Source: Emiliania huxleyi CCMP1516 (taxonomy: Eukaryota). From it: a DNA stretch of 64,000 bases. The translations under genes were made by a program, and so were the position numbers. The notes under the pieces are model-generated. The model did no database searches. It worked only from the letters and a program-made list of their open reading frames with translations, and was not told the DNA's origin. The stretch lies in assembly GCF_000372725.1 (NCBI RefSeq), contig NW_005202368.1, forward strand, positions 418,293 through 482,292, in the 5' to 3' direction. How positions within the stretch are numbered: the first letter of the stretch is position 1; each line of letters begins with the position of its first letter. This document shows positions 1-37,757 of the stretch, in pieces.

Positions 1-2487
1 GCCGCCTCCGCCTCCTCCGCCGCCCGCGCCGCCGCAGCCTCTGCTACCACCCGCTCCGCTTCCTCCGCCACTCGCGCCTCCTCAGCCGCCCGCGCCTCCT
101 CCGCCTGCTCCGCCGCCCGCTCCGCCGCCCGCGCTGCCGCTGCCGCCGCCTTCTCCTCCTTCTGCCGCTGCCGCTTCAGCGCCCTGGCCTCGCGGGTCTT
201 TCGCTCCGCCAGCTCGTCGCGCAGCCGCCGCGCCGCCCGCAGCGCCTCCGAGCCGTCGGCGGCCTCGGTGTTCGCGTTGATCGCCGCCCTGAGCGCCTCG
301 AGATCGGCGTCGCCTCGCTCGCACGCCTCAACCGCCTCGCGCAGCGCAGCCTCGGCAGCATCGCGCGCCTCCGCCGCCTCCGCAGCAGCTGCCGCCTCGC
401 GTGCGGCCGCCTCGGCCTGCTCGGCTGATTCTGCGGCCGCCGTCTCCCCCCCAGCCTGTGCTGCGGTCGACGAGTGCTCCTCGAAGGCGCGCACGCACTC
501 GGCGTGGCCTTTCTCCTTGGCCCACTGAAGCGCCGTCGTGCCGCTCGCAGTGCGCGCCGCAGCGTGTGCGCCCGCCCGCAGCAAGCGCCGCACGACCGCG
601 GGGTGGTTGAAGAGAGCGGCGGCCATCAGCGCGGTGCCGCCGACGCTGTCCTGCAGGTTGACCTCCGCGCCGTGCTGCAGCAACAGCTCGACCACCCGCT
701 CGTGGCCTTGGAAGGCGGCCATCATCAGCGCAGTCCAGCCGCTGCTGTTCTGCAGGTTGACCTCTGCCCCGCCCCGCAGCACCATCTCGACCACTCGCTC
801 GTGGCCGTTGTTGGCGGCGCCCATCAGCAGCGTGAGGCCGCTAATGCCGTCTCTCTCGCACGTCGCGTCGGCCCGCCCGCCACTGTCGAGCCACGCCAGC
901 ACCGCCTCCTCCTCGCCTCGCTCAGCCGCTGCCACGACCTCATCGGGGGCTGCCGCGACACCGCTCGACGCCTGCTCCGCCGCCGCCGCTGGAGATGGCG
1001 TCTTCGCGACTCTCGATCCAGCCGAGGAAGCGCCGCCGGAGGAAGCGCCGCCTGCGCCTTCGCCGCCGGCTGCCGCCGCCATGAGCCGTCCCGCCACCAC
1101 CTCCTGGACGTGCTTCTTGAAGGCCTCGACGCACTCGGCATGGCCCTGCTCCTTGACCAGCTGCAGCGCCGTCATGCCGATCGCATTGCGCGCCGCCGTG
1201 TCTGCGCCCGCCCGCAGCAAGCGCCGCACGACGGCGGGGTGGTTGAGGTAAGCGGCGAACATCAGCGCGGTTTCGCCGACGCTGTTCTGCAGGTTGATCT
1301 CCGCGCCGTGCTGCATGAGCAGGTCGACCACCTGCTCGTGGCCTTGGCCGGCGGCGGTTATCAGCAGCGTGAGGCCGCTCAAGCCGCCTCTCTCGTACGT
1401 CGCGTCGGCCCGCCCGCCGCCCTCGAGCCACGCCAGCACCGCTGCCTCGTCGCCTCGCCCAGCCGCTGCCACGACCTCGTCGGAGACTGCCACGCCACCG
1501 CTCGGCGCCCACTCCGCCGCAGCCGGCGACAGATTACCCGGCCGCACCCGCACGCTCTCGCCGCCGCCCTCGAGCGCCACAGCGTACCGCCCGCCCTCGA
1601 AGCTCCGCGCCACGCCCCGCTGCCCGTTCAGCTCGGGGCGGGCAGAGAGGCCGCCGAGCACGACGCGCTGGCCGAGCAGCGGCGCGTCCACAGCTGCCGC
1701 TGCCGCGCCCGAGGAGGCCCGGCCGTCTGCAGCCGCCGCCGCCTCAGCTAAGACCTTGACGCACTCGGCGTGGCCGTTCTCCTTGGCCAGCTGCAGCGCC
1801 GTCTTGCCGTTGACAGTGGGCGCCGCGTCTGCGCCCGCCTGCAGCAATCGCCGCACGACGGCGGGGTGGTTGAGGAGGGCGGCGCCCATCAGCGCGGTGA
1901 GGCCATTGCTGCTCTGCAGGTTAACCTCAGCGCCGCGTCGTATCAGCGAGTCGACCACCCGCTCGTGGCCGTTGCCGGCGGCGTGCATCAGCGCGGTGCT
2001 GTCGTCGCTGTCCTGCAGGTTGACCTCAGCGCCGCGCCGAATCAGCAAGTCGACCCCCCGCTCGTGGCCTCCGATTGCGGCCCACATCAGCGCGGTGCGG
2101 CCGTCGCTGGCCTGCAGGTTGACCTCAGCGCCGCGCCGAATCAGCAAGTCGACCACCCGCTCGTGGCTGGTTGATCTTCGCCCTGTGCCGCAGCAGCAGC
2201 GCGACCACCCGCTCGTGGCCGTACACGGCGGCGCCCATCAGCGCGGTGTCGCCGACGCTGCTCTGCAGGTTGACGTCAGCCCCGCGCCGAATCAGCAGCT
2301 CGACCACCTGCTCGTGGCCGTAGCGGGCGGCGCCCATCAGCAGCGTGATGCCGCTCACGTCGTCTCTCTCGCACGTCGCGTCGGCCCGCCCGCCGCCCTC
2401 GAGCCACGCCAGCACCGCCGCCTCCTCGCCACGCTCAGCCGCTAGCACGGCCGCGTCGGAGCAGCTGAGGGAATCTCTCACCGCCAT
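1..2487 (-). pseudogene. Ankyrin-repeat protein (ANK blocks + SH3-like module + Ala/Glu-rich coil), frameshifted near 2168; runs off the window's left edge
   Basis: ORF 2125..2589 encodes ANK repeats (GITLLMGAARYGHEQVVELLIRRGADVN). From about 2167 a different minus frame stays open to position 1, with many GxTALMxAAxxGHERVVxLL repeats and the GQRVVLGGLSARPELNGQRG...RYAV...VRPGNL module. Paralogue of 9048..12194. Confidence 0.8.
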
Positions 2488-6990: not shown

Positions 6991-9047
6991 GAGGCTTCGG
7001 CTGGGACACCCCTGCCTCTTGCAGGGGGACGAGCACGAGTTTGACTGGGGGGCGCGGTGGGGCGCCACCCCGGCGCGCCACACACGTGCGCGCGTGGCGT
7101 CTTCGTTGACAGCAGGGCGGTGAGCGTGCAGCAGCAGCGGCACACAGAGCGTCGCACCGCCACCCACAGAGCGACGCACCGCCACCACAGATTCAGGTCG
7201 ACGACTGCTACGCTGTCGAGCGGTGCGGCCGGCTGTCCCGCCCCTTCCTCGGCCGCTGCTACTACACGGCGCTGCAGCTCGGCCTCGCGCGGCCCGCCGG
7301 CATACTTTCCTCGTTACCCCGTCCGCCGATCCACTCGGCCGCGCGCCCCTCTGCCACGACGCGATCCCGCCGTGGGCGGCCCTCGCCGCGGTCGCAACGA
7401 CCGCCGGGCGGGCGACGCTGCGGACGGCGTCTTCGGCTCACGCGCGTGCCGTTTCGAACAGGTGGCCGTCGCGTGGGTGGGCGGCTGCGTCGGGAGTTGG
7501 CTCTGCTGCCGCCGGCTCGCGGGCCCGCCGGCGGAGAAGCCGGCAGCGGCGCGCAGTCGGCGGGGAGGGCGGTCGGGGTACGCGCCGGTGGAGGCGAGGG
7601 AGGCGAGCCCGGACCCGCTTGCGGGAGTCGGCCGTGTAGGGCGGCTCTCTCCGTCGTCGTCGCGTCGTCGTGTGAACACAGCGTTGCTGTCTTTCCCCCT
7701 TCTCGACTGTCTGTGCTTGTGCGTCTTGGGTCCGGAGTTGTGCGTTTATGTGAACACAGCCGTTGTGATCGGCGGTCGGCAGGTGCATGCCTGCCGACTC
7801 TGCTCGCCCACCTGGTGGCGGCGGCGCCGCCGCCGCTGACGACGGTACTGCGACCGGCGGTAACAGCGGCGCTGCCAGCGTCGTCAACGGCGTCGGCGCA
7901 GCCGGCCGGCAGCGACTGCCGACGGACGAGCAGTCGGTCCAGCACGCTTACGCTTCACTGCATGAAGCCAACACTGTCGCTCTCGACGCAGAGCATCTCG
8001 GTGGTGGTGTCGATGCGGTGGTGGAGGTGGTGGAGGAGGCGGAGGGCGCTGCGGCGGCGCTCCGTGAGGACGCGCAGCGGGCTCTCGCCAGTGCCGCAGA
8101 CGCAGCGGCTTCAGGTGGCGGCTGCTACGGCAAAAGCCATGCTGAGGCTTGGGCGGAGAGTGCGGCGCTGGAGCAGTGGGCAGACGAGCTCGAAGAGCTC
8201 GCCGAGCTCGCGGCAGCGGCGGAAGACGCGGATGGATCAGATCAAGACGAACCGAAGAGCGCCAGGACATCGACAGCGAGCTGTGAGCTACCACTTTCTT
8301 CCCGCTACGCTCGTGTTATTGGAGATGTTCAAGATGCAGTTTATCGGGCCGACGATCGGCAGCGAGGAGATATTCCTCGCCTCGCTGCTCATCGTGGGCA
8401 TTCGTTCAAGATGCTGAGCGACCGCGCGACGGCGACGGCGGCTGCTGCTGCTGCTGCCGCTGCTTCTGCCGCTGCTGCTGCCTCTGTTGCGGTTGCTGCC
8501 ATAGCTGCTGCGGCCGCACCACCCGGCGAGGCCATCCTCGCGCGCACGGACGCTACAGGCGCGGGCGCGGGGGTGGAGGGTGCGTATGAGGCGGAGATGA
8601 TGGAGGCGCTCGCCGCGTGCGGCAATTGAGCGCCTCCCTCTCTCTCCGGCTGCGCGCCTGACCGGTGCGGCCTCCGAGTCGGCGTCTAGCGCGCGCGATA
8701 AGGTTTTTGCTCGCCTTCCCTGGGACCCCGTGTTGCGTGACTCTGTGCAATTTCGGGCCCGGGGTTGTGCGTTTACGTGAACACAGCGCCATAGGAGGTA
8801 TTTTCTTCTCAATAACAAGGCTGTGAATGTGTTGTGGTCAAAAAAGCTGTTCGGTTTTTCAAAGCAAGGAGCACGCAACACTCTTGGGGACAAACAGAGC
8901 GGCTCGAATGTGCAGTTACTCGAGTCTCTACGGCCGCTATACGCCCCCGACCCCTCACGCGCGCCTCGCACATGGCCTCACACAACACACCGACGACGGT
9001 CTATACCTGTACCATACGACCTCGAGGAACACTCGTACACACAAATG

Positions 9048-12000
9048 TTACCCCTCGAGCGCCCCGATCGCCTCCGTCACCTCGGCAACTAGCCGCGACG
9101 CCTCCCCCTCGCTGCGCGGCCCGTCCCTCCTCCACCTCGCCGCGTCGTGGTGCCTCGCCGCGTTCGCCCAGATGCGCAGCGAGTGCAGCTGGCTCCGCAG
9201 CTCGGTCGGCAGGCCGCACTCGCGGTGCCAAAAGTTGATGCGCTCCTCGAAGCTGTCGGGCGCCGCCGCAGAGCGCGAGGCGTAGACGGCGTCGAGGCGC
9301 GGCATCAGCGTCTTGAATGCGAGCATCATGTTGTCCTGGATGCGCGCCTGCGCGTCGCCGCCCGTGCGCATGCCGCGCACCTGCACCGAGAGCGGCGAAG
9401 GCTCGTACCCGGTGGTGCGGGCGGCTGTCGCAGCGGCCTCGTCTCCAAAGGCCGGCGCAGCTTCTTCCACCCCCGCCCCGCCCCGCGCGCCAGACAGCAG
9501 CGCCCGGAGCGTCAGCAGCGCCTCGGGCAGTGTGGGCCGCTTGCGCAAGCTATGGTGGCAGAGGCTCTTCTGCCCGTCCCCCGCCTGCGCGAGGTCCTTT
9601 ACTGCGCGCGCCGCGTCGACTGGCCAGCCCGCAGCCACATCGGCGAGCTTCACTGCGTCGATGTCGGTCCAGTCCTCCTCGAACTCGTCCTCGCACCGGT
9701 CGGTGAGCTGCACCTCGGAGCGGCTGGTGAGGCAGACGAGGAGGGTGATGCCGATGGCGTAGCCGTCCGTCTTGCTCGAGTACTCGCCCCCCTTGGTGAT
9801 GGAGGGGCAGAGGTAGCCCGTGGACATGTAGAGGGCAGTCGAGCGGCAGCGAACAGACGCGTCCGGCCGCTGGTCCTTTGCGAAGCCCGTGTCGGCGAGG
9901 ACGGCGGTCAGCTTCTCGTCGAGCAGGATGTTGTCTGGCTTGACGTCGCGGTGCACGATGCCCTTCGAGTGGAGGTAGACGAGCGCCTCGGTCGCCTCGC
10001 ACGCGACACGAACGCGCTGCTGCCACGTCAGCGGCCTCGGCGGCTCCACCATCCCCAGCCGCCGGAGCTGCGCCGCTCGGTCGGGATCCGAGATACGCAG
10101 CCGCGCCTCGAGCGAACCGCCGCGCATCAGCGGCGAGAGGAGGCAGACGCCGTCGGGCGAGAGGCAGTAGCCGAGCAGCGGCAGCAAATGCGGGTGGCTC
10201 ACCGCCTTGAGCAGCTTCACCTCGAGCTCCGCCCGAGACAGGCCGCCCGACTGGCCCGACTTTGCCCGCTTGACGACGAGCGGCAAGTGGCGCAGCTGCG
10301 GCGGCGCGGCGAGGGAGAGGTGGAGGTCGGCCGACGCCTCGTAGACGCGGCTGAAGCCGCCGCTGCCAATCAGCTTGCCCTCTGCAAACCCGTCGGTAGC
10401 CGCGGTGAGGTCCGACAAGGCTAGCTCGACTGGCCGAGCAACAGCCGCCTCCGCCGCGGCTGGCGCGGCGGCGACAGACAGCTCTCCCAGCTTCGACTCT
10501 GCCGCGCTCACCTCCTCGGCCAAGGCAGGCAGCGCGCCCACGTGCGGCCTGGCGGCAGCGATGCCCGCTCGGAGCGCGGAGGGGCTGTCTGCGGTGTCGA
10601 GCGACTTGAGCGCGCCCATCGCCGCGCCATGCGCCTTGCGCAACCGCTGGCTGTCCCGCCTCCGCGCCTCCTTGAGCTTGTCGCGAACGCGCCTCGCCTC
10701 CGCCAGCACAGCCGGGCTCGCGAGGCTGCTGCACGCCTCCAGCGCGCTCGCCACGCCCTCGTACGAGCCAGCGGCCACGGCCTTCTGCAGCGCCTCGTCC
10801 GCCGCAGCGATGGCGGCTGCGTTGGCGGGCGGAGGAGATGGGGCTGGCGGTGGGGTTGGCGGCTGCAAATCGGCGGTAGCGCTGGGGCCAGGCGCCGCGT
10901 TGTCTGCCTCGCCGCCGCCGCTCTTCTTCTTCTTCTTCTTGCCCTTCTTGCTCTCCTTGGCGCGCTCCTCCTTCTCCGCCTCCTCCTCCGCCAGCAGCGC
11001 CTCGGCATGCCGCGCCGCAGTCGCCTCTGCCGCCGCTCTCACCGCCTCCCTCGCCGCTGCCTCCGCCTCCGCCTCCGCCGCCGCCGCATGCTCCTCGATG
11101 ACGTGCACGCACTCGGCGCAGCCCTCCTCCTTGGCCAGCTGCAGCGCCGTCTTGCCGTTCTCAGCGCGCGCCGCCGTGTCTGCGCCCGCCGCCGCCGTGT
11201 CTCCTCGAGGCCGTGTCCGCGCCGCCGTGTTTGCGCCCGCCCGCAGCAAGCGCCGCACGACGGCGGTGTGGTTGAAGTAGGCGGCGAGCATCAGCGCGGT
11301 GCAGCCGTCGCTGTTCTGCAGGTTGAGCTCCGCGCGGAGCTTCAGCAGCAGCTCGACCTCCCGCTCGTTGCCGAAGCTGGCGGCGTGCATCAGCGCGGTG
11401 AAGCCGTTGCCGTTCTGCGTGTTGATCTCCGCGCCGCGCCGTATCAGCAAGTCGACCACCCGCTTTTGGCCGCTGCGGGCGGCGGTCATCAGCGCGGTCC
11501 AGCCTTTGCTGTCCTGCTGGTTGATCTCCGCGCCGTGCTTCAGCAGCAAGTCGACCACCCGCTCGTGGCCTTCCTGGGCGACGATCATCAGCGCGGTGAA
11601 GCCTTCGTTGCTCTGCAGGTTGATCTCCGCGCCGTGCTGCAGCAGCAGCTCGACCACCCGCTCGTGGCCGAAGCTGGCGGCGCTCATCAGCGCGGCGAAG
11701 CCTTCGTTGCTCTGCAGGTTGATCTCCGCGCCGTGCTGCAGCAGCAGCTCGGCCAACCGCTCGTGGCCGTTGCCGGCGGCGCCCATCAGCAGCGTGAGGC
11801 CGCTAGTCTCGCCTCTCTCGTACGTCGCGTCGGCCCGCCCGCCGCCGTTAAGCCACGCCAGCACCGCCGCCTCCTCGCCTCGCTCAGCCGCTGTCACGAC
11901 ATCATCGAAGACTGCCGCAGCACCGCTCGACGCCCGCTCCGCAGCCAGCGACAGATTGTCCGGCCGCACTCGCACGCTCTCGCCGCCGCCCTCTAGCGCC

Positions 12001-12194
12001 ACCGCGTACCGCCCGCCCTCGAAGCTCCGCGCCTCGCCCCGCTGCCCGTTCAGCTCGGGGCGGGAGGAGAGCCCGCCGAGCACAATGCGCTGGCCAAGGA
12101 GCGGCGCGTCCACAGCTGCTGCTGCTGCGCCCAACGAAGCGCCGTCCGCCCCTGCCCGGCCCTCCGCAGCCACGGCTGTCCAAGGCGCCTCCAT
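9048..12194 (-). CDS. SH3-like + ankyrin repeats + coiled coil + IRAK/RLK-type protein kinase + C-terminal HEPN (DUF4145-like) domain protein, 1048 aa, no introns
   Basis: About 7-8 ANK repeats. Kinase motifs IGSGGFSRVY, LVVKR, HRDVKPDNILL, DTG, STGYLCP and DGYAIG, plus RLK-like LSDLTAATDGF and LTWQQRVRVA. C-terminus FEERINFW...LRSQLHSLRIWANAARH. Confidence 0.9.
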   Translation of the reverse strand: MEAPWTAVAAEGRAGADGASLGAAAAAVDAPLLGQRIVLGGLSSRPELNGQRGEARSFEGGRYAVALEGGGESVRVRPDNLSLAAERASSGAAAVFDDVVTAAERGEEAAVLAWLNGGGRADATYERGETSGLTLLMGAAGNGHERLAELLLQHGAEINLQSNEGFAALMSAASFGHERVVELLLQHGAEINLQSNEGFTALMIVAQEGHERVVDLLLKHGAEINQQDSKGWTALMTAARSGQKRVVDLLIRRGAEINTQNGNGFTALMHAASFGNEREVELLLKLRAELNLQNSDGCTALMLAAYFNHTAVVRRLLRAGANTAARTRPRGDTAAAGADTAARAENGKTALQLAKEEGCAECVHVIEEHAAAAEAEAEAAAREAVRAAAEATAARHAEALLAEEEAEKEERAKESKKGKKKKKKSGGGEADNAAPGPSATADLQPPTPPPAPSPPPANAAAIAAADEALQKAVAAGSYEGVASALEACSSLASPAVLAEARRVRDKLKEARRRDSQRLRKAHGAAMGALKSLDTADSPSALRAGIAAARPHVGALPALAEEVSAAESKLGELSVAAAPAAAEAAVARPVELALSDLTAATDGFAEGKLIGSGGFSRVYEASADLHLSLAAPPQLRHLPLVVKRAKSGQSGGLSRAELEVKLLKAVSHPHLLPLLGYCLSPDGVCLLSPLMRGGSLEARLRISDPDRAAQLRRLGMVEPPRPLTWQQRVRVACEATEALVYLHSKGIVHRDVKPDNILLDEKLTAVLADTGFAKDQRPDASVRCRSTALYMSTGYLCPSITKGGEYSSKTDGYAIGITLLVCLTSRSEVQLTDRCEDEFEEDWTDIDAVKLADVAAGWPVDAARAVKDLAQAGDGQKSLCHHSLRKRPTLPEALLTLRALLSGARGGAGVEEAAPAFGDEAAATAARTTGYEPSPLSVQVRGMRTGGDAQARIQDNMMLAFKTLMPRLDAVYASRSAAAPDSFEERINFWHRECGLPTELRSQLHSLRIWANAARHHDAARWRRDGPRSEGEASRLVAEVTEAIGALEG

Positions 12195-12574
12195 GGGAGA
12201 AGGCTCAGGTTAAACAAACTCTGCCTCGCCGGGCAGAGCAGACGGCAGAACAGACAGACGGCGTCGACCGACTCCCAACTCGAGAAGCTGTGAGCCGCTG
12301 TTTTCACATAAACGCACAACTCCGGACCCAAGACGCACAAGCACAGACAGTCGAGAAGGGGGAGAGACAGCAACGACAGTCAGAAGTCAGCGCTGGGTCC
12401 CAGGAAGGCGAATGCGATGACGGCCTCTAGTGTGAGCTCTAGCTGTTTTCACGGTGCTCAGACTGCCGGCAAAGTGTGTGTGTGTGTGACTGGTGTGTGT
12501 CGTCGTGGTTTTAGGTATATTGTTGGCACAAAAGTCGTGGTTTCGTATCAAGAATACTCACTCACTCACACTGC

Positions 12575-14779: not shown

Positions 14780-15245
14780 CGAGTGAGTGAGTGAGTATTC
14801 TTGATACGAAACCACGACGACACACACCAGTCGACTCGCATCGCTTCGGTTGCCTCCATGAACGGCGGAGCTATTCTCGCGCCCACACCACACCTGGCTC
14901 CAACGTGGACACGCCCATAGCTCTAGGTCTTGCATGGCATCAGAAGCTTTATCTCTGGGCCCCGAAAGGCATCTCTAGTAGCATCGTTACGCATGCCCCC
15001 TCCCCCCAGGGCGCATGCGCCTCACGTCTCGCCAGAGCATACGCCCTTGGTGTGCGACGAGACGAGTTTTTCGCCATGCAGCGAGCAGCAAGCCGCCCGC
15101 CGCAAACAGCCGGAGGCATCGCCACAGCGCTGTCTGCGCCGCGGTCCCGCACCCGTCGACGAAGCTCCCCCCGCGGAAGGCCGCGCGTGGCCACGCCTTG
15201 TCGATCGAGATGAGCGCGCCTGAAGCTCGCCCACCTACTGCCCCC
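14780..15245 (-). repeat. Dispersed repeat family A (diverged copy, (ACTC)n tail)
   Basis: Reverse complement of 37285-37757, 42780-43124 and part of 31082-31403; all full copies end ...GTCGTGGTTTCGTATCAAGAAT plus a simple repeat. Confidence 0.85.
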
Positions 15246-17004: not shown

Positions 17005-19466
17005 CTACACGAGCCACGGCGTGCACGTCCCGTTGTGCAGGGCCGGGGACTGCTGCGGCTCGTGCGGCGCGCACACGCCGCGGCTGTCCACGGCGCTCGC
17101 GTTGATCGCCTGCACGAGGGCGGTCAGCCGGCGCACGAGGCCGGGCTGGGAGGACGCGAGGTTGGTACTCTCCGTGGGGTCGCTCTCCAGGTCGAAGAGC
17201 ATCACCTGTGCGCAGACCATGGGAGGGCTCCTCGGTCCGACGGAGGCCGCGGCTGCACCCGCGTCCGAGGCGCGCACGGAGTCGACTGTCCACGGCCCTG
17301 CCGCCGTCGCGCTGTTGTTGTGGTCCGCGGGGCACGGCGGGCCTAGAACCATGCCTCCAGCGTATAGCGTGGGTTCATTCCCGTGGGTGGTGTGGTAGCG
17401 GTCGGCGGGGCACATCCTGTTCATGTGTTGAATTCACAATCATGAGGGCGGGAGGACGGTCTTTATGGGGAGATGCGGGGAGATATGGTGAGATGTTCCG
17501 CTTCTAGGATGGCCGGCCTGCGCACCAGATACGGGGAGATACGGGGAGATACGGGGCGATACGGGGCGATACGGGGAGATACGGGGAGAGATACGGGGAG
17601 GTATGGGGAGATATGAGGAGATGTGCTGCTTCTAGGACGGCCGGCCCGTGCACCAGAAGCCGTTGCCGATGCTGCGGTGCCGGTTGTCGTCCGCGCCTAG
17701 GGTTCGGGTACCGTGGTGGTAGGGGGATGGGTTCGGTACCGTGGTGCTGCGGTGGCGGTTGTCGTCCGCGCCCGGGTCGCCAAGGAGGAGCTTCCACCTC
17801 CCCTGCCGCAGGGCGTAGTACGGAGTCGCGTGCTGGTCGCCTAGGGTTCGGGTACCGTGGGGGTAGGGGGATGGGTTCGGTACCGTGGGTGTGGGGGGGG
17901 CGAGTCGCGTGCTGGTCGCCGGAGCAGACGAAGCCCGGCGGCCGGTTGCTGTACGGGCTAGCGAGCGGGTCCGCCTGTGGAGATGGTAGTCATACCCATA
18001 CTTCAAAGAGCCATCCACTCCTTTTGCTACGGGGAGATACGGGGAGATATCGCGCAGCACAGTCTGCCGTGCTCGAGATACGGGGAGATGTGGGGAGATA
18101 CGGGGAGATACCGGGAGATATCGCGCAGCACAGTCTGCCGTGCTCGAGATACGGGGAGATGTGGGGAGATACGGGGAGATACCGGGAGATATCGCGCAGC
18201 ACAGTCTGCCGTGCTCGAGATACGGGGAGATGTGGGGAGATACGGGGAGATACCGGGAGATATCGCGCAGCACAGTCTGCCGTGCTCGAGATACGGGGAG
18301 ATGTGGGGAGATACGGGGAGATACCGGGAGATATCGCGCAGCACAGTCTGCCGTGCTCGAGACACGGGGAGATGTGCGGAGATACGGGGAGATGTGGGGA
18401 GGTGTGGGGAGATGTGGGGCCTCGAGCAGCACAGTCTGCCGTGCGCCCGCCCCTCCGCGGGAGAGCATTGGCCACTGCGAGACGCCATCGAGCGCGGAGC
18501 CGGCCTGTTCACAGCAGGTGCGGTGTGAAGAGGCGCCGTGGTGTGAGGAGACGCCGCCGAGCGCGGAGCCGGCCGCAGCGAGCTCCCCCGCATCTCCTCC
18601 CATCGCGGCGATCAGCGTCGGCAGCACATCGACGGTGTGCACGATCCTAGAAGGTTCCTAGAAGGTTCCTAGAAGGCTCCTAGAAGGTTCCTAGCACATC
18701 AACGGTGTGCACGATCCCCGCCGCCGTCGCGCCGCGCTGGCTGCGCGCGATGCCAGCGCCTACCCGCGGCGCGAGAGAGCGGATGGCGCAGGGGGCCTGC
18801 CCGCCCACGTGCTCGGAGCGATGGCGGCGCCGGAGACGAAAGCGACGCCCCGCAGTCCCCCCTCCCACGCCGTGCACTTTCCGCCTCGCAGCGGCCAGTT
18901 CTGCCCCCCGGTCCACCCGCCGCACGCCGGCGTGGCGGCGCCGTTGTCCTACGTGCTGAATACGCCAACCTCAGGGCGTGAATACGGTATTGTGCAGTGT
19001 CTTCAGAGCACCGCGTGAAGACGAGGGAAGCGAATGCAGTGAATACAGCGGAATACGGCCGAGTACAGCTGAATACGTGCCTTCTCGAGCGCTGGTTGGG
19101 AGACATGAACACGTATGCTGGTTGGGGAGACATGCACGTGTTCCGCTTCTAGGGCCGTTGTCCGTCTGGAACCAGAGGAGCGTATCGTCGAGGATGCCTG
19201 GGGGAAGGTTCCGAGAAGGTTCCGAGAAGGTTCCGAGAAGGTTCGAGACGCTTCGTGGAGGATGCCTAGAAGGTTCCGTAGGTTCCTAGAAGGTTCCTAG
19301 AAGGTTCCTAGAGGGTTCCTGCGGTGAGGGAGAGGGAGAGGGAGGGAGGGAGGGAGGGAGAAGGAGGGAGGGAGGGGGGGGGGGGGGAGGGAGGGAGGGG
19401 TTTAGGGAGGGAGGGAGGGAGGGAGGGAGGGAGGGAGGGAGAGGGAGAGGGAGAGGGAGAGAGAGA

Positions 19467-19518
<52 letters not shown>

Positions 19519-21362
19519 TCGGCAAGGATGCCCTTGCGCCGCAGCGCGCGCGTCACGTTGCCAACGCCCTCGTCCAAGCAAGAGAGCATGCCCGCGAAGA
19601 GGTTCCGCGCCTATATTTCTTTTCCGCGCGCGATTTCTTTTTTCCAAGCAAGAGAGCATGCCCGCGAAGAGGTTCCGCGCCTATATTTCTTTTCCGCGCG
19701 CGATTTCTTTTTTCCAAGCAAGAGAGCATGCCCGCGAAGAGGTTCCGCGCGTTCGTCCCCTCCACCCTGGCAAACTTGTACGGTGCGACGTACTGCGCCG
19801 GCACCTAATTAATAATTAATTAATAATTAATTAAACTTGTACGGCGCGACGTACTGGGCCGGCACCTGCTCCACGTGCGGGGGAGCTCGCCCGAGCGACA
19901 GCCGAGAGGAGCCGAGAGGCAGCCGAGAGATGGCCGAGAGATGGCCGAGAGACAGCCGAGAGGCAGCCGAGAGGCAGCCGAGAGGCAGCCGAGAGGAGCC
20001 GAGAGGCAGCCGAGAGATGGCCGAGAGATGGCCGAGAGACAGCCGAGAGGGAGCCGAGAGGCAGCCGAGAGGCAGCCGAGAGGCAGCCGAGAGGCAGCCG
20101 AGAGGGAGCCGAGAGGAGCGGAGAGGAGCCGAGAGGCAGCCGAGAGGCAGCCGAGAGGAGCCGAGAGGCAGCCGAGAGGCAGCCGAGAGACAGCCGAGAG
20201 GCAGCCGAGAGGCAGCCGAGAGGCAGCCGAGAGGCAGCCGAGAGGAGCCGAGAGACAGCCGAGAGGGAGCCGAGAGGAGCCGAGAGACAGCCGAGAGGGA
20301 GCCGAGAGGCAGCCGAGAGGCAGCCGAGAGGCAGCCGAGAGGCAGCCGAGAGGCAGCCGAGAGGCAGCCGAGAGGCAGCCGAGAGGCAGCCGAGAGGCAG
20401 CCGAGAGGAGCGGAGAGGAGCGGAGAGGAGCCGAGAGCAGCCGAGAGGCAGCCGAGAGGAGCCGAGAGGAGCCGAGAGGAGCCGAGAGGAGCCGAGAGGA
20501 GCCGAGAGGAGCCGAGAGGCAGCCGAGAGGAGCCGAGAGGAGCCGAGAGGCAGCCGAGAGGCAGCCGAGAGGCAGCCGAGAGGCAGCCGAGAGGAGCCGA
20601 GAGGAGCCGAGAGGAGCGGAGAGGAGCGGAGAGGAGCCGAGAGGAGCCGAGGGGAGCCGGGGTGAGCCGAGGTGAGGTGAGGTGAGGTGAGTTCGGCGCC
20701 TGGTCGGGCACATGCACTGCTTGGTACGGGAGGTAGAGGAAGAGCGGCGCGGCCGCGTCGTGCTCGCGGATGATCGACACCGCGCGCCGAGTGAAGAGGT
20801 GCGTCGAGTACTCGCCGACCGCCTCCCAAGCGTGTCGCGAGCAGCCGGCGCCGCAGTCTGGTCGCGAATCATCGTGCAAGTCAAACCCTCCGCAGTCGCC
20901 CTGATGGGTGTAGTAGTCTTCGTCGCCAGAGTAGTAGCCGAGGTACGAGTCGAAGCCGCGGAACGTGGGCGTGTGCTCCCAGCGGTGGTACCCGAGGTGC
21001 CACTTCCCGACCGCGTGGCACTTGCTCCGCGCGTCGACTCGCTTGACAAACTGCGGCAGCAGCGTCTCATCCAGCGGGAGCGACCAGTTGTTTTGACTCG
21101 TGAGGACTCCCGACTGGAAGCCATAGCGGATGTTGTAGCGGCCGGTCAGCAGGGCGCCCCGCGTCGGGCTGCATGCGCGCTGCACGTAAAAGTGAGCCAG
21201 CTTGACGCCGGCTGACGCGAGCTTGTCAATGTTCGGAGTCGCGATCTGGCTTCCGGCGTAGCCAAGGTCCGCGTAGCCGAGGTCGTCTGCCACCACGAGG
21301 ACCAGGTGCTTCGCCGGCGGAGACGCGGCGGAGAGGGCGGGAGCGGCCGCAGTGATGAGCAT
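17005..21362 (-). CDS. Arylsulfatase B/I/J-like sulfatase (S1 family), about 12-13 introns
   Basis: [27 protein letters not shown] (formylglycine motif), [70 protein letters not shown]. Exons traced by hand: 21362-20700, 19804-19751, 19610-19532, 19197-19163, 18948-18831, 18759-18717, 18646-18574 and onward. Confidence 0.92.
18030..18420. repeat. Intronic tandem array of about 71-nt units, each an exon fragment (ARQTVL) plus GGGGAGATAC repeats
   Basis: About five near-identical units, each containing GCAGCACAGTCTGCCGTGC, which also occurs in the exon at about 18426-18445. Confidence 0.9.
19895..20690. repeat. Intronic 10-11 nt minisatellite (AGCCGAGAGGC/AGCCGAGAGG)n
   Basis: About 800 bp array inside the first sulfatase intron. 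Confidence 0.95.
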
Positions 21363-29066: not shown

Positions 29067-30622
29067 GAGTCTGCCGCCGCCTCGAGGGCGCGGCGAAGGG
29101 CGAGGCGCGAAAAGGCCCACGACATGCCTGAGAAGAAGAAGAAGAAGAATGAGAACCGTACGAAGACCACGCGCAGCAACAGCAATCGCCTTGTGGGTCG
29201 ACGGCGTGTGGCCGGAGCGCGCGCCAGTGGCTCGGCGGGAAGACTAGCACCTCCTTCTCCCCGGAGAGCTGCAGCTTAATTAATTAATTAATTAATTAAC
29301 TAAGTAATTAATTAACACACTCCTTCTCCCCGGAGAGCTGCAGCAGCGTCCCATCGGTGACGTCGATATGGAGGGGCTCAGTGTGGCCCGCCTACGACGT
29401 GTCTGGGAGGTGTCTAGGAAGTGTCTAGGAGGTGTCTAGGAGGTGTCTAGGAGGTGTCTAGGAGATGTCTAGGAGGTGTCTAGGAAGTGTCTAGGAGGTG
29501 TCTAGGAGGTGTCTAGGAAGTGTCTAGGAGGTGTCTAGGAAGTGTCTAGGAGGTGTCTAGGAGGTGTCTAGGAGGTGTCTAGGAGGTGTCTAGGAAGTGT
29601 CTAGGAGGTGTCTAGGAGGTGTCTAGGAAGTGTCTAGGAGGTGTCTAGGAAGTGTCTAGGAGGTGTCTAGGAGGTGTCTAGGAGGTGTCTAGGAAGTGTC
29701 TAGGAGGTGTCTAGGAAGTGTCTACGAAGTGTCTAGGAAGTGTCGTAGGAAGTAGTGGGCCCGCCGGCCCCCACCACGCGTTGACCAGCGGGCCGTACAG
29801 CGCGTGCCTGATTAACTAAGTCATCCGTGGTGAATGAATGACCGAATTAGTCGATGAGGCGGCCGTACAGCGCGCGCCTAATACCGCACCACGGAGCCTG
29901 AGCCCACACCGGAGTCGATGCTCTGGAGGTATCGTACTAGGCCGTAGCAGCGCGTGCATGCGCAAGCCGCATGCTTCGCCGACGGCGTCGAAGAGCGGCG
30001 CGAGGACGGCACCGGCGCGCGACGAGGCGACATCGCTTTGGACGTAGCAGTCGTTGGAGGCGGCGATGCCGGACCTGTTCACAGCGGGAAGAGCTGCGAA
30101 GAGACGCTGTTTGCAGAAGGCTCCCCGCCGACAACGACGCCGAACCTGTTCACAGCAGTAGAAGTGGTGAAGGAGACGTTCGCCGCAGCCGTTGGCGGCG
30201 GCGATGCCGGACCGGATCGAGTCAGCGAAGAGCGGCGCTGTCGTCGTCACCGTGCTCCGCATGTGCTTCCGGCCCGTCCACCGATCGGGACTCGTCGCGT
30301 ACCCGTCTCCACCGTGGATGCGGCACGTCAGCGGCAGGTGAGCGCCGACCGCCGCGGCAAAGCCGCTCAGCCCCCAGTCCTCTCGGGCGAGCGCGCCGAG
30401 CGTGCCCTCGACGAGCAGCGGTGTGCCCTCGCGCTGGTGCCGGGCAAACACGCGCGGCGAAAGCTGCGTGGCGTGGATCCGCTCCACAGCCCGGCCGGTG
30501 CGAGGCACGAGGCAGAGCGGCCGCAGCGGCGGGCGCGGGAGCGTGGATCGCCTGTCGATGGCGTGACGCCGGCTCGCCCACGAACTGCGCACTGTGAAGG
30601 CGGCAGTAGTGCACTCTGGCAT
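27866..30622 (-). CDS. JmjC/cupin-8 family 2-oxoglutarate Fe(II) hydroxylase, multi-intron, with poly-Gly tracts
   Basis: Spliced reading gives NAWWGPAGHTEPLHIDVTDGTLLQLSGRRSVLVFPP...VTLRPGELLFLPACAAHEI...SVNRFW (HxD...H triad), plus N-terminal GTPLLVEG. Confidence 0.8.
29405..29750. repeat. Intronic 11-nt minisatellite (GGTGTCTAGGA/AGTGTCTAGGA)n
   Basis: Seen directly inside a JmjC intron. Confidence 0.95.
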
Positions 30623-30904: not shown

Positions 30905-31403
30905 TGTGTGTGTGGGCTGCTCCGAGGGGGCCCTCTGTGCGATCCGACGGGTAGGGGGGCTGTGCCCGGGCGGTGTCCGGTGTGGAGTCCCCTTCTGATC
31001 CCGCCTGGGATGTTGGGTGTGAGGTTGTGGCGGCTTCGATCCCAAGGGGGGGAGCTGATCCCACTCAATAACCAACTCTCAGGGGCAGTAGGTGGGCGAG
31101 CTTCAGGCACGCTCATCTCGATCGTCAAGACGTCGCTACGCGCGGTCTTCCGCGGGGGGAGCTGCGTCGACGGGTGCGGGACCGCGGCGCGGCCAGTGCC
31201 GCGGCGAGGCCTCCGGCTGTTTGCGGCGGGCGGCTTGCTGCTCGCGGCGATGGCGAAAAACTCGTCTCGCCACACGCCAAGGGCTTATGCTCTGGCGAGA
31301 CGTGAGGCGCATGCGCCCAGGAGGGGAGGGGGCATGTGTAACGACACTGCTAGAGATGCCTTTCGGGGCCCAGAGATAAAACTTCTGTGATGCCATGCGT
31401 GAC
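30905..31403 (+). repeat. Dispersed repeat family A (3'-truncated copy)
   Basis: Near-identical to 37108-37606. Confidence 0.9.
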
Positions 31404-33036
31404 CTCCCCCCCTCCCCCCCCCCTCCGGCCGCGGCCATGCAGCATGCCCTAACACTAAGTCGAGCAGCGCCCGCTCGGTGTTGCCGAAGGCGACAAAAGC
31501 CCCCTTCCAGCCGAGCCGGTCGCCACCCTTGCACGCAAGCGAGCTCGTGAGTTTCAAGTCGCCAACGAGGCGCACATGCCCTTTGCCGATGTTCGCCGCC
31601 GCCACGTCAGGTTGTTTTGGGTTACTGTAACTGAGGTGTGCAGTCGGCTCCATCTCGATGAGCATGCCCCACGCCGAGCGAAGGGTCTTGACGAGTCGTT
31701 TGAGCAGGTATTTGTGTCGTGTCGCGTGCTTCGCACGCGGGTTGACCATTGCGGCATCGCCGAGTTCTTCGTGCGGCTTGCCGTTTGGCGCCTTCTTGCC
31801 CGCCTCCACCGCCTGGCAGGCAACATCGAGCGGGAGGCCGAGGCGGCGCTGAACTGTAATGCGCATCGCCCACGTCTCCATCTTCATATCATCCCGCATG
31901 GGGATCGCATTCAGGAAGGCGCCAGCCGACGGTGTACCGCCGCTGCGCCTGCTGTAAGAACTCGCTGGTAGACGAGAACTCCGGAAGAGGCAGCAGCTCC
32001 GCCGCCGGCGTAAGCTTGGGCGGGTGGTAGCGGCGCCGTCGCACCGCCTTGGTCTCCTGGAAGGGCCCGACGACGTCTTGGTATAGCGTGCGCCCGTCCC
32101 ACTCGCGCCACGTCTTGCCGACCTCGTCGCGAAGGGCGCGGAGGTGTTTGTGAGCCTCCCGAAGCTCGTCGAAGCGCTCTCCCGGCGCGAGGGCCAATGG
32201 CTCGTGCAGCTCGCGTATCGGCCGCGTGACGAGGGCCCACGTGCCGACCCACGCCGCCTCACGGATGTCCATGGCACTGGTCAGGCCCATACCGCCCTGA
32301 GGGGTGGCCCGTCTACCGTCTACCGGTAGACCGGGTAGACGGTAGACCATTTGGTAGACGAGTCTACCGGCAGTCTACCGGTAGACCGTAATGAACCTAC
32401 GACCCCAGTCTACCGGTAGACTTGGTAGACCGCGGTAGACTGGTCTACCCCTTTTTCAGCCGCCGAACGGTAGACCGCCCGCCGGACGGTCGGTAGACCG
32501 CCTCGGCCGTTTGAATATGCAGCCTCCAGTTCTCCACTCTGGCGCCACTTTGGCAGACGAGCGCCGGCAGATGCCCTCGCGGCCTGCCGGCGAACGTCCG
32601 TCCGGCGAGAACGCGCGATGAAAGTGCGGTCTGCCGCGCGGGCGAAATCTGCCGGTGAGAGAGGCTGTTGAGCGCGGTCGCTGTGAGCTTCACCTCATGC
32701 CATTTCCGTGCGAGGCAGCTCCGTGTCTTTTATGAGATCAAATGAACGTCTTTACACACTCATCGGGCGGAACCGCTCACTGCAGAGCGCCGCCCTCTCG
32801 CGGCTCTCGAGAGCGAGTTTTCGCCAGACAGCCACACGTCCATTATGGCGCGCGTTCTCGCCGGACGGACGTTCGCCGGCAGGCCGCGAGGGCATCTGCC
32901 GGCGCTCGTCTGCCAAAGTGGCGCCAGAGTGGAGAACTGGAGGCTGCATATTCAAACGGCCGAGGCGGTCTACCGTCCGGCGGCGGCGGTCTACCGTTCG
33001 GCGGCTGAAAAAGGGATACTCGAGTCTACCGCGGTC

Positions 33037-34659: not shown

Positions 34660-35360
34660 TAACCCTTAGATATTCCCCAAGGGGTATTCCTCAGGGTAAT
34701 CTCTACGGATATTTCCTAAGGAGAATTCTAAGGAAAATTTCTAAGGATATTTCTAAGGATATTTTCTAAGGATATTTCTAGGATAATTTCTAAGGCGACT
34801 CTCCAAGATCAATCGCTAAGGATATTTGTCTGAGAATATTGTCTTAGATATTTGGCTAAGAATATTTTCTTAGGATATTGTCTTAGATATTTGGCTAAGA
34901 ATATTGTCTCAGGATATTGTCTTAGAATATTGTCTTAGATATTTGGCTAAGAATATTGTCTCAGGATATTGTCTTAGATATTTGGCTAAGAATATTGTCT
35001 CAGGATATTGTCTTAGAATATTGTCTTAGATATTTGGCTAAGAATATTGTCTCAGGATATTGTCTTAGAATATTGTCTTAGATATTTGGCTAAGAATATT
35101 GTCTCAGGAGGATATTGTCTTAGGATATTTGGCTTACGAAATTGTCTCAGGATATTTGGCTTAGGAAATTGTCTCAGGATATTTGGCGTTGGATATTCCC
35201 TCAGATATTTGACTTAGGATATGGTCTCAGGATATTTGGCTTAGGATATGGTCTCAGGATATTTGGCTCAGGAAAATGGCTTAGGAAATTTTCTCAGGAT
35301 GTTTTCTCAGGATTGGTCTCAGGACATAATCTCAGGATATTTGGCTTAGGATATTTGGCT
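34660..35360. repeat. AT-rich tandem repeat island built from 12-13 nt subunits (e.g. AATATTGTCTTAG, ATATTTGGCTAAG)
   Basis: Seen directly; strongly AT-rich compared with the flanks. Confidence 0.9.
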
Positions 35361-37107: not shown

Positions 37108-37757
37108 ATTGTGTGTGGGCTGCTCCGAGGGGGCCCTCTGTGCGATCCGACGGGTAGGGGGGCTGTGCCCGGGCGGTGTCCGGTGTGGAGTCCCCTTCTG
37201 ATCCCGCCTGGGATGTTGGGTGTGAGGTTGTGGCGGCTTCGATCCCAAGGGGGGGAGCTGATCCCACTCAATAACCAACTCTCAGGGGCAGTAGGTGGGC
37301 GAGCTTCAGGCACGCTCATCTCGATCGTCAAGACGTTGCTACGCGCGGTCTTCCGCGGGGGGAGCTGCGTCGACGGGTGCGGGACCGCGGCGCAGCCAGT
37401 GCCGTGGCGATGCCTCCGGCTGTTTGCGGCGGGCGGCTTGCTGCTCGCTGCGATGGCGAAAAACTCGTCTCGCCACACGCCAAGGGCTTATGCTCTGGCG
37501 AGACGTGAGGCGCATGCGCCCAGGAGGGGAGGGGGCATGTGTAACGACACTGCTAGAGATGCCTTTCGGGGCCCAGAGATAAAACTTCTGTGATGCCATG
37601 CGTGACCTAGTAGTGTCCCCAGCTATGGGCGTGTCCACGTTGGAGCCAGGTGTGGTGTGGGCGCGAGAATAGCTCCGCCGTTCATGGAGGCAACCGATGC
37701 GAGTCGACTGGTGTGTGTCGTCGTGGTTTCGTATCAAGAATTCTCTCTCTCTCTCTC
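37108..37757 (+). repeat. Dispersed repeat family A (longest copy, (TC)n tail)
   Basis: Matches 30905-31403, 42780-43124 and the reverse complement of 14780-15245. Confidence 0.9.

What the first reader, a model, noticed from the sequence alone, without database searches (positions are those of the whole stretch)
9048..12194. RNase L-like architecture in an alga: ankyrin + kinase + HEPN-like domain
Seen: ANK repeats, a coiled-coil linker, a kinase with catalytic Lys and HRD (DFG replaced by DTG), and a helical C-terminal domain of about 100 aa containing FEERI...LHSLRIWANAARH (motif at about 9150-9179). Established: DUF4145-type HEPN domains carry R-x-x-[G/R]-N-x-A-x-H, and animal RNase L is ANK + kinase-like + HEPN-related KEN RNase. 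Inference: since this kinase is IRAK/plant RLK-like rather than Ire1-like, the protein could be an independently assembled, ligand-gated RNase or cell-death effector, plausibly antiviral. The position just before the Asn is Ala, so nuclease activity is uncertain.
Basis: partly seen in the sequence, partly recalled or inferred. Interest (0 to 1): 0.85.

Follow-up and report, generated by a model that had tools for sequence, protein, structure and literature searches.

The report
Algal look-alike of RNase L
This intact algal gene joins ankyrin repeats, a plant/IRAK-type kinase and a predicted HEPN (RNA-cutting) domain, and belongs to a large family seen so far only in haptophyte algae, which likely arrived at the layout of the animal antiviral enzyme RNase L independently; no activity has been shown.

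Summary
Window 9048-12194 (-) is one intronless 1048-aa ORF: six ankyrin repeats, a basic helical linker, a BIK1/BAK1/IRAK4-like kinase and a conserved ~110-aa C-terminal domain.

That domain is very likely a DUF4145-type HEPN. The top fold matches are HEPN proteins (best Z 9.2, modest for a helical bundle). 26 of 75 relatives hit Pfam DUF4145, one above the curated cut-off, and the motif is in register with EcoKI HsdR.

It is not an RNase L orthologue: the kinase class differs and the helix order is canonical, unlike KEN. The family is large (132 clusters at 50% identity), named only from haptophytes, with interchangeable N-terminal repeats.

New result: the 'missing' Arg is compensated. All 297 motif-bearing proteins carry an Arg either just before the Asn or just before the His, never both or neither. 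The state switched at least four times. This, with near-invariant R1007/N1011/H1015 and dN/dS below 1, favours a working site.

Best reading: a sensor-gated, dimerising kinase-RNase defence or cell-death effector (0.55). RNase activity, dimerisation, trigger and antiviral role are untested.

The parts
9048..12194 (-). Whole gene, intronless ORF, 1048 aa
   Evidence: stop-free frames of 1068-1321 codons holding the same kinase and C-terminal domain in independent contigs
11952..12107 (-). Small N-terminal module (aa 30-81), no Pfam or PDB match; a 92% identical copy lies at window 1530-1685 in a neighbouring ankyrin gene
11217..11804 (-). Six ankyrin repeats (about aa 131-326), inferred sensor; replaced by Sel1/TPR, Arm or cold-shock domains in some relatives
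10923..10949 (-). Lys-rich patch (aa 416-424) after a long predicted helix
10629..10802 (-). Family-conserved basic helical linker block (aa 465-522); function unknown, possibly oligomerisation or nucleic-acid binding
   Evidence: (pattern found in 22 of 32 long members)
9495..10427 (-). IRAK/plant RLK-like Ser/Thr kinase (aa 590-900): K642, E658, HRD 748-750, DTG 768-770; no APE Glu
9051..9401 (-). Predicted HEPN (DUF4145-type) domain, aa 932-1048
9150..9179 (-). Predicted active-site motif L1006-R1007-x-W1009-A1010-N1011-A-A-R1014-H1015 (the 'Arg before His' form)

Best explanation
The gene encodes ankyrin repeats, an IRAK/RLK-like kinase and a predicted HEPN domain, and likely works as a trigger-gated RNase of defence or cell death, assembled independently of RNase L. 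Shown: the architecture, the family, the conservation and the arginine swap. Strongly predicted: the C-terminal domain is a DUF4145-type HEPN. Inferred by analogy with Ire1, RNase L, RAZR and HepS: the interchangeable N-terminal repeats bind a trigger (most plausibly a viral protein or infection signal); two or more copies then associate through the linker and kinase, probably with trans-phosphorylation; and two HEPN motifs form one composite site that cuts single-stranded RNA such as tRNA, rRNA or mRNA, halting translation. In this copy the site would be built from R1007, N1011, H1015 and R1014, the last standing in for the usual Arg at 1010 one helical turn away.
For: Fold: 13 of the first 14 VIA rows are HEPN-superfamily proteins by entry title or cited paper (YggD by recall; 3mfn not checked); best 1wwp Z 9.2, rmsd 3.5 over 108, then 5yep 8.5 and 2hsb 8.3. 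Foldseek's high-probability rows are HEPN too. Pfam DUF4145 hits 26 of 75 members at E <= 1; P0080 passes the curated cut-off, 26 vs 23.1 bits. The EcoKI HsdR DUF4145 motif aligns in register. The motif ends a long helix (H75-92, His 93 in the model), where PMC3710099 section 7 places it. Conservation in 75 hand-picked rows: L 75, R 74, W 73, N 75, H 73. Arginine exclusivity: 164 Arg-before-Asn only, 133 Arg-before-His only, 0 both, 0 neither; at least 4 changes in all 1000 bootstraps of the HEPN tree; 6 changes on the kinase tree, 5 forced by starred branches; opposite states in domains differing at only 4 of 116 sites. R1014 is kept through four synonymous codons. HEPN dN/dS 0.17-0.52 against 30 loci. 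Kinase HRD 75 of 76, DTG 76 of 76; 80 of 82 long members have the kinase upstream. RAZR's DUF4145 is a proven RNase needing R146 and H154, eight apart like R1007/H1015 (PMC13017515). Lineage-specific expansion with variable sensors is the pattern PMC3710099 section 9 links to defence.
Against: No activity, trigger or phenotype data. Z 9.2 is below the ~13 the tool asks for helical bundles, and no Foldseek hit reaches E 0.001. The window's own domain has no Pfam, PADLOC or PDB-sequence hit, and the hhalign match to HsdR is not significant (probability 0.4). Its motif does not fit Rx4-6H (R1007 to H1015 is Rx7H), and the RAZR equivalence rests on spacing only. The upstream Ex3[KR] acid is poorly conserved. 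Independent-pair tests do not reach significance (2 pairs, p 0.5; 5 pairs, p 0.06), the counts include many near-copies, and recombination between paralogues can inflate the number of switches. The APE Glu is absent throughout the family. Neighbours of relatives are mostly ordinary enzymes and repeat proteins, with no defence cluster.
Confidence: 0.55

Rival explanations
1. The domain is HEPN, but the Arg-before-His form in this copy is catalytically dead or damped. It would bind RNA, scaffold a dimer, or act as a brake or decoy for active Arg-before-Asn paralogues.
For: The canonical Arg before Asn is absent. Both forms coexist in E. huxleyi CCMP1516, as an active/regulator pair would. PMC3710099 notes inactive HEPNs in some expansions.
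Against: R1007, W, N, H and D1017 are as conserved in this form as in the other. A dead form would be expected to lose the Arg without always gaining one four residues on: 0 of 297 have neither. HsdR's DUF4145 has Gly at that position, so an Arg there is not universal in DUF4145 (HsdR's domain is not itself a tested RNase).
Confidence: 0.2
2. It is an active kinase-gated RNase, but serves stress or life-cycle control (regulated tRNA or mRNA decay, Ire1-like) rather than defence.
For: Ire1 uses the same kinase-HEPN logic for stress. None of the five CCMP1516 identifiers searched occurs in the infection supplement of PMC12489294 (weak, because rows are labelled by best hit). No defence-like gene neighbourhood.
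Against: Many diverged paralogues, sensor swapping and kinase/HEPN module exchange (L004; P0018) fit an arms race better than housekeeping. Sensor-gated effectors need not be transcriptionally induced (general knowledge).
Confidence: 0.18
3. The C-terminal domain is a generic helical bundle (interaction or dimerisation module), and the HEPN likeness is superficial.
For: Z below 13, E above 0.3, no direct Pfam hit.
Against: HEPN proteins outrank all other bundles among 48,161 chains. One relative passes the DUF4145 cut-off. The best-conserved residues are polar R/N/H at the HEPN motif position.
Confidence: 0.05
4. It is a true, divergent RNase L/Ire1 homologue.
For: Same domain order. RNase L appears among PDB hits.
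Against: The best-scoring stretch of each RNase L hit is ankyrin (aa 130-260). The kinase's 60 best PDB matches are plant RLK/RLCK, IRAK, TRK and GRK kinases, with no Ire1 or RNase L. The domain aligns end to end with canonical HEPNs, whereas KEN is circularly permuted.
Confidence: 0.02

Closest known systems
RNase L (ankyrin + pseudokinase + KEN)
   Same: Domain order repeat sensor - kinase - HEPN-superfamily domain; soluble; inferred gating by dimerisation.
   Different: IRAK/RLK-class kinase with catalytic residues kept; DUF4145-type, non-permuted HEPN rather than KEN; about 230-aa basic linker; sensors interchangeable; multi-copy. 2-5A binding not tested.
Ire1 (luminal sensor, TM, kinase, KEN)
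   Same: Active kinase followed by a HEPN-superfamily domain.
   Different: No luminal-domain Pfam hit; different kinase class and HEPN family; lineage-specific expansion rather than a conserved pan-eukaryotic gene.
DUF4145 HEPN proteins: RAZR/PD-T7-4 (PMC13017515) and EcoKI HsdR N-terminus
   Same: L-R-x-x-[G/R/A/S]-N-x-A-x-H register (HsdR); R-to-H spacing of eight as in RAZR; sensor-plus-HEPN logic.
   Different: Eukaryotic and fused behind a kinase; extra family signature W-x-N...H-x-D...W...GP; no significant sequence match to bacterial proteins found; RAZR sequence not obtained for alignment.
HepT/YutE/TT-type HEPN toxins and HepS (PDB 1wwp, 5yep, 2hsb, 1ylm, 9oik)
   Same: Best structural matches, covering the whole domain.
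   Different: 6-14% identity; no MNT antitoxin; covalently tied to a kinase.
Plant RLCK/RLK (BIK1, BAK1, PBL2) and IRAK4
   Same: Closest kinase sequences (E 8e-26 to 7e-20); immune signalling kinases.
   Different: DTG for DFG, no APE Glu, and a built-in effector domain.

Membership tests
HEPN superfamily | All-helical ~100-120 aa up-down bundle matching solved HEPNs | tested here: met
   Model pLDDT 89.8; top matches HEPN, Z 9.2, rmsd 3.5 over 108; Z is modest for a helical bundle
HEPN superfamily | Rx4-6H motif at the end of helix 3 with a polar residue after R | tested here: inconclusive
   Met in 164 of 297 relatives (R-N-x3-H). The window copy and 132 others have A/S/G-N-x-x-R-H with an upstream Arg at Rx7H. 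Position in the fold fits
HEPN superfamily | Upstream acidic Ex3[KR] motif (present in many families) | tested here: inconclusive
   E/D at 984 in 49 of 75 rows; D1017 in 68 of 75 instead
HEPN superfamily | Dimer with a composite active site | not tested
HEPN superfamily | Metal-independent RNase activity | not testable with these tools
   Needs an assay
DUF4145 (PF13643) | Score above the Pfam gathering cut-off | tested here: inconclusive
   Window domain: no hit. Family: 26 of 75 weak hits; 1 of the 26 proteins rescanned passes the cut-off
DUF4145 (PF13643) | R-x-x-[G/R]-N-x-A-x-H signature | tested here: met
   In register with HsdR, with Ala at the G/R position
RNase L / Ire1 | Ire1-class kinase or pseudokinase | tested here: not met
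   Best 60 of 72 PDB matches are RLK/IRAK/TRK/GRK; none is Ire1 or RNase L
RNase L / Ire1 | KEN domain (circularly permuted HEPN, PF06479) | tested here: inconclusive
   No KEN family hit shown (25 of 31 families displayed) or 74; the model aligns end to end with canonical HEPNs. An unlisted family is not excluded, but nothing points to KEN
RNase L / Ire1 | Ankyrin repeats N-terminal to the kinase (RNase L) | tested here: met
RNase L / Ire1 | 2-5A-binding residues in the ankyrin repeats | not tested
   RNase L sequence was not on hand for a residue-level comparison
IRAK/Pelle/RLK kinases | Closest sequence affinity and intact K, E, HRD, DxG | tested here: met
   no phylogeny with reference kinases; APE Glu absent

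The most novel reading that the evidence does not exclude
Haptophyte algae, including the bloom-forming Emiliania/Gephyrocapsa, independently built an RNase L-like antiviral suicide system: an expanded receptor family in which swappable repeat sensors gate an IRAK/RLK-type kinase and a bacterial-type DUF4145 HEPN RNase. Its active site toggles between two arginine positions one helical turn apart, perhaps to change RNA specificity or escape viral inhibitors.
Probability: 0.4. Interest if true: 0.9.

Novelty: new variant of a known kind. Interest (0 to 1): 0.76.

Why it matters
Giant viruses end coccolithophore blooms, and intracellular antiviral effectors of these algae are barely known. PMC12489294 (passages read) calls their defence underexplored, highlights TIR, LRR and NACHT genes, and never mentions HEPN or RNase in its main text. 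A multi-copy sensor-kinase-RNase family gives concrete, testable candidates for infection-triggered RNA decay or cell death. It would also be a second, independent eukaryotic origin of the kinase-HEPN design beside Ire1/RNase L. The strictly compensated arginine swap is a natural experiment on HEPN catalysis, and suggests that other HEPNs scored as inactive for lacking R-before-N may be active.

Tried and rejected
Dimer modelling of the HEPN domain was not available, so the composite site is untested.

Direct searches with the window's C-terminal domain gave nothing in Pfam, PDB sequences or PADLOC (only kinase hits and one weak RmrA hit). The ESM Atlas gave only sub-0.9 leads, one with DUF4145 in 13% of members. 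The viral fold library gave nothing significant. No KEN, Ire1 or RNase L chain is listed in the 50 rows; this does not exclude them.

No relatives were found in viral contigs (0 of 8 candidates) or prokaryote genomes (0 of 64). These patterns were specific to close kin, so the absence is weak. tblastn of one relative against plasmids gave one E 0.9 hit. No bacterial donor was identified.

The RAZR sequence could not be obtained: the supplement gives only an accession, and primer searches hit rRNA or nothing.

The full-length single-sequence model was too poor to use (pLDDT 48.5).

Expression: no holder is on record as RNA. Contigs of four probable-RNA runs cover the gene, including the HEPN region (e.g. 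9132-9425 with 3 differences in 294), but the run type is a guess and paralogues are near-identical, so it is not counted as evidence.

Infection tables: CCMP1516 identifiers of the family were absent from supplements of PMC12489294 (I saw 9 of 21 Pkinase_Tyr and 9 of 15 Ank_2 hits) and PMC8531018; inconclusive.

No whole genome is held for the window, so its own copy number is unknown. The HEPN review PMC7856873 is not held. The N-terminal 52-aa module stayed unidentified. Earlier-finding look-ups by sequence and place returned nothing.

Rows dropped: P0122 (low-complexity false hit) and truncated or frameshifted hits were left out of alignment A2; 30 of 327 stored proteins lack a readable motif and are not in the 297; P0106 (long branch) was left out of the tree.
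Full report
OBSERVATION. Window 9048-12194 on the minus strand is a single 1048-codon ORF with no intron needed. Pfam finds six ankyrin repeats and a kinase at aa 604-892. The kinase keeps K642, E658 and HRD, has DTG for DFG and lacks the APE glutamate; the motif LRIWANAARH lies at 9150-9179. The organism is not given. The C-terminal domain is 88-98% identical to Emiliania huxleyi CCMP1516 proteins, so the window is inferred to be Emiliania/Gephyrocapsa or close kin.

THE FAMILY. The last 114 residues find 132 representatives at 50% clustering, and a profile finds 163 short and 24 long proteins among about 8,000 candidates scored in each search. Every species name that came up is a haptophyte: E. 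huxleyi, Chrysochromulina tobinii, Calcidiscus leptoporus. Most hits are unnamed metagenomic proteins, so the range is not settled. CCMP1516 has at least six models (97349, 468558, 433934, 360870, 230091 and the kinase-less 248625). The domain is almost always C-terminal, and 80 of 82 proteins with 330 or more residues upstream have the kinase there. The N-terminus varies among the 31 long members scanned: ankyrin arrays of different length in most, Sel1 repeats in one cluster, single Arm and cold-shock cases. A basic helical block between sensor and kinase recurs (22 of 32 by a strict pattern). Kinase and HEPN modules have been exchanged: L004 has a HEPN at dS 0.10 from the window but a kinase at dS 0.98, and P0018 groups differently in the two trees. 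Neighbouring genes of relatives are mostly ordinary enzymes and repeat proteins.

IS IT HEPN? The alignment-based model is confident (pLDDT 89.8). Against 48,161 solved chains the best matches are 1wwp (Z 9.2, rmsd 3.5, 108 aligned), HepT 5yep (8.5) and 2hsb (8.3), then DrrA, YutE, HepS, HI0074, other HepT toxins, YggD and Csm6. Foldseek gives the same families at probability 0.7-0.96 but E above 0.3, and the second look agrees. The Z-scores are under the level the tool asks for helical bundles, so the fold alone is not proof. Two other lines agree with it. Pfam DUF4145 is the commonest hit across the alignment (26 of 75 at E <= 1), and one member passes the curated cut-off, though the window's own domain has no hit. 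EcoKI HsdR, which passes DUF4145, reads LRRIGNQAVH in register with LRIWANAARH (the hhalign score itself is not significant). The motif ends a long helix, where PMC3710099 section 7 puts the HEPN motif. I put the HEPN assignment at about 0.9.

IS IT RNase L? No. The kinase's best solved relatives are BIK1, BAK1, PBL2, BRI1, FERONIA and IRAK4, and no Ire1 or RNase L is among the 60 rows shown of 72. RNase L's best-scoring match to the protein is through ankyrins. The domain aligns end to end with canonical HEPNs, whereas KEN is circularly permuted. The resemblance is therefore inferred to be convergent; I did not run a tree with reference kinases.

THE ARGININE SWAP. Across 297 motif-bearing proteins (of 327 stored, many near-copies), 164 have R-N-x-x-nonR-H and 133 have (A/S/G)-N-x-x-R-H; none has both arginines and none has neither (earlier counts). 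The two positions are i and i+4 on the same predicted helix. The state is not a single event. On a HEPN tree built without the motif columns (80 rows after 80% filtering, P0106 left out) it needs 4-6 changes in all 1000 bootstraps, and one clade is rejected (p-AU 0.013). On a kinase tree of 32 rows it needs 6 changes, 5 forced by starred branches. Domains differing at only 4 of 116 residues carry opposite states, and the nested RNAASH and RNAAGH forms keep the other diagnostic residues of the Arg-before-His clade, so the switch is local. Against this: independent pairs are too few for significance (p 0.5 and 0.06), and gene conversion can copy a state between paralogues. R1007, W1009, N1011, H1015, D1017, W1021 and GP are equally conserved in both classes (the conservation counts come from 75 rows I picked for coverage and intact frame). 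R1014 persists through AGG, CGC, CGG and CGT codons (these loci were partly found by a pattern that contains it). HEPN dN/dS is 0.17-0.52 (dS is probably compressed by high GC). In RAZR, a DUF4145 protein shown to cut RNA, the essential residues R146 and H154 are eight apart (PMC13017515, passages), as R1007 and H1015 are. I could not get the RAZR sequence, so that equivalence is inferred from spacing. Together these make an active site more likely than a dead one (about 0.65-0.7 given HEPN).

MECHANISM. HEPN RNases act as dimers with a composite site and are switched on by trigger binding in RAZR and HepS (passages of PMC13017515 and PMC13043305). The simplest reading is that the repeats sense a trigger, the linker and kinase bring copies together, and the paired HEPN domains cut single-stranded RNA and stop translation. 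Sensor, trigger, dimer, phosphorylation step and substrate are all inferred. The defence role rests on the expansion, the sensor swapping, the module exchange and the immune associations of both the kinase class and DUF4145, the pattern argued in PMC3710099 section 9. No infection data support it: family identifiers were absent from the two supplements searched, a weak test.

WHAT IS IN PRINT. Ten full-text searches, including HEPN with haptophyte, huxleyi, ankyrin-kinase-RNase L, and DUF4145, showed no listing that describes this family. I read PMC3710099 (outline, sections 6, 7, 9, 16 and passages; no mention of Emiliania or haptophytes; only a 4-kb supplement is held as text, so its alignment file may hold more), passages of PMC13017515 (one supplement is a scan and unread), PMC13043305, PMC9519451 (plus supplement rows) and PMC12489294 (plus supplement rows), and supplements only of PMC8531018. 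All other papers were seen as listings. Most subscription papers and bioRxiv supplements are not covered. Earlier AI notes report other, differently built kinase-HEPN fusions in bacteria and another eukaryote; I did not test them.

VERDICT. A real, intact, conserved gene of an apparently undescribed haptophyte family that very likely ends in a DUF4145-type HEPN domain. It is predicted to work like RNase L but is not a member of that family. New variant of a known kind; interest 0.76.

Noticed in passing
window 3-2457 (-): A second ankyrin gene with very similar repeats and a 92% identical copy of the N-terminal module (1530-1685). It appears frameshifted or spliced near 2170-2240 and runs off the window start, so whether it also ends in kinase-HEPN is unknown.
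   Followed up: partly
window 11952-12107 (-): 52-aa module with no Pfam or PDB match; from recall it resembles an SH3-like module common in algal repeat proteins.
   Followed up: partly
window 12297-12375 and 7682-7760: A 79-bp stretch upstream of the gene is 97% identical to an inverted copy upstream of the neighbouring plus-strand ORF at 7787; possibly a shared promoter/UTR element or small mobile element.
   Followed up: no
kinase subdomains VII-VIII, whole family: DTG replaces DFG in 76 of 76 members, and the APE glutamate is absent in nearly all: an unusual activation segment that may matter for regulation.
   Followed up: partly
P0011 / P0027 (EMIHUDRAFT_248625 and relative): Gene models with the last three quarters of the HEPN domain fused to an unrelated protein and no kinase; a mis-joined model or a degenerate copy.
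   Followed up: no
L007:6206-8518 (-): A Sel1-repeat plus U-box gene lies directly downstream of a family member, tail to tail.
   Followed up: no
window 19845-20664, 29304-29820, 34774-35161, 17957-18472: Tandem arrays with 10-11, 11, 13 and 71-bp units, and dispersed 11-bp micro-repeats.
   Followed up: no
window 15078-15244, 31082-31248, 37285-37451; 32487-32979: A 167-bp dispersed repeat in three copies (92-94%) and a 164-bp inverted repeat pair 165 bp apart, MITE-like.
   Followed up: no
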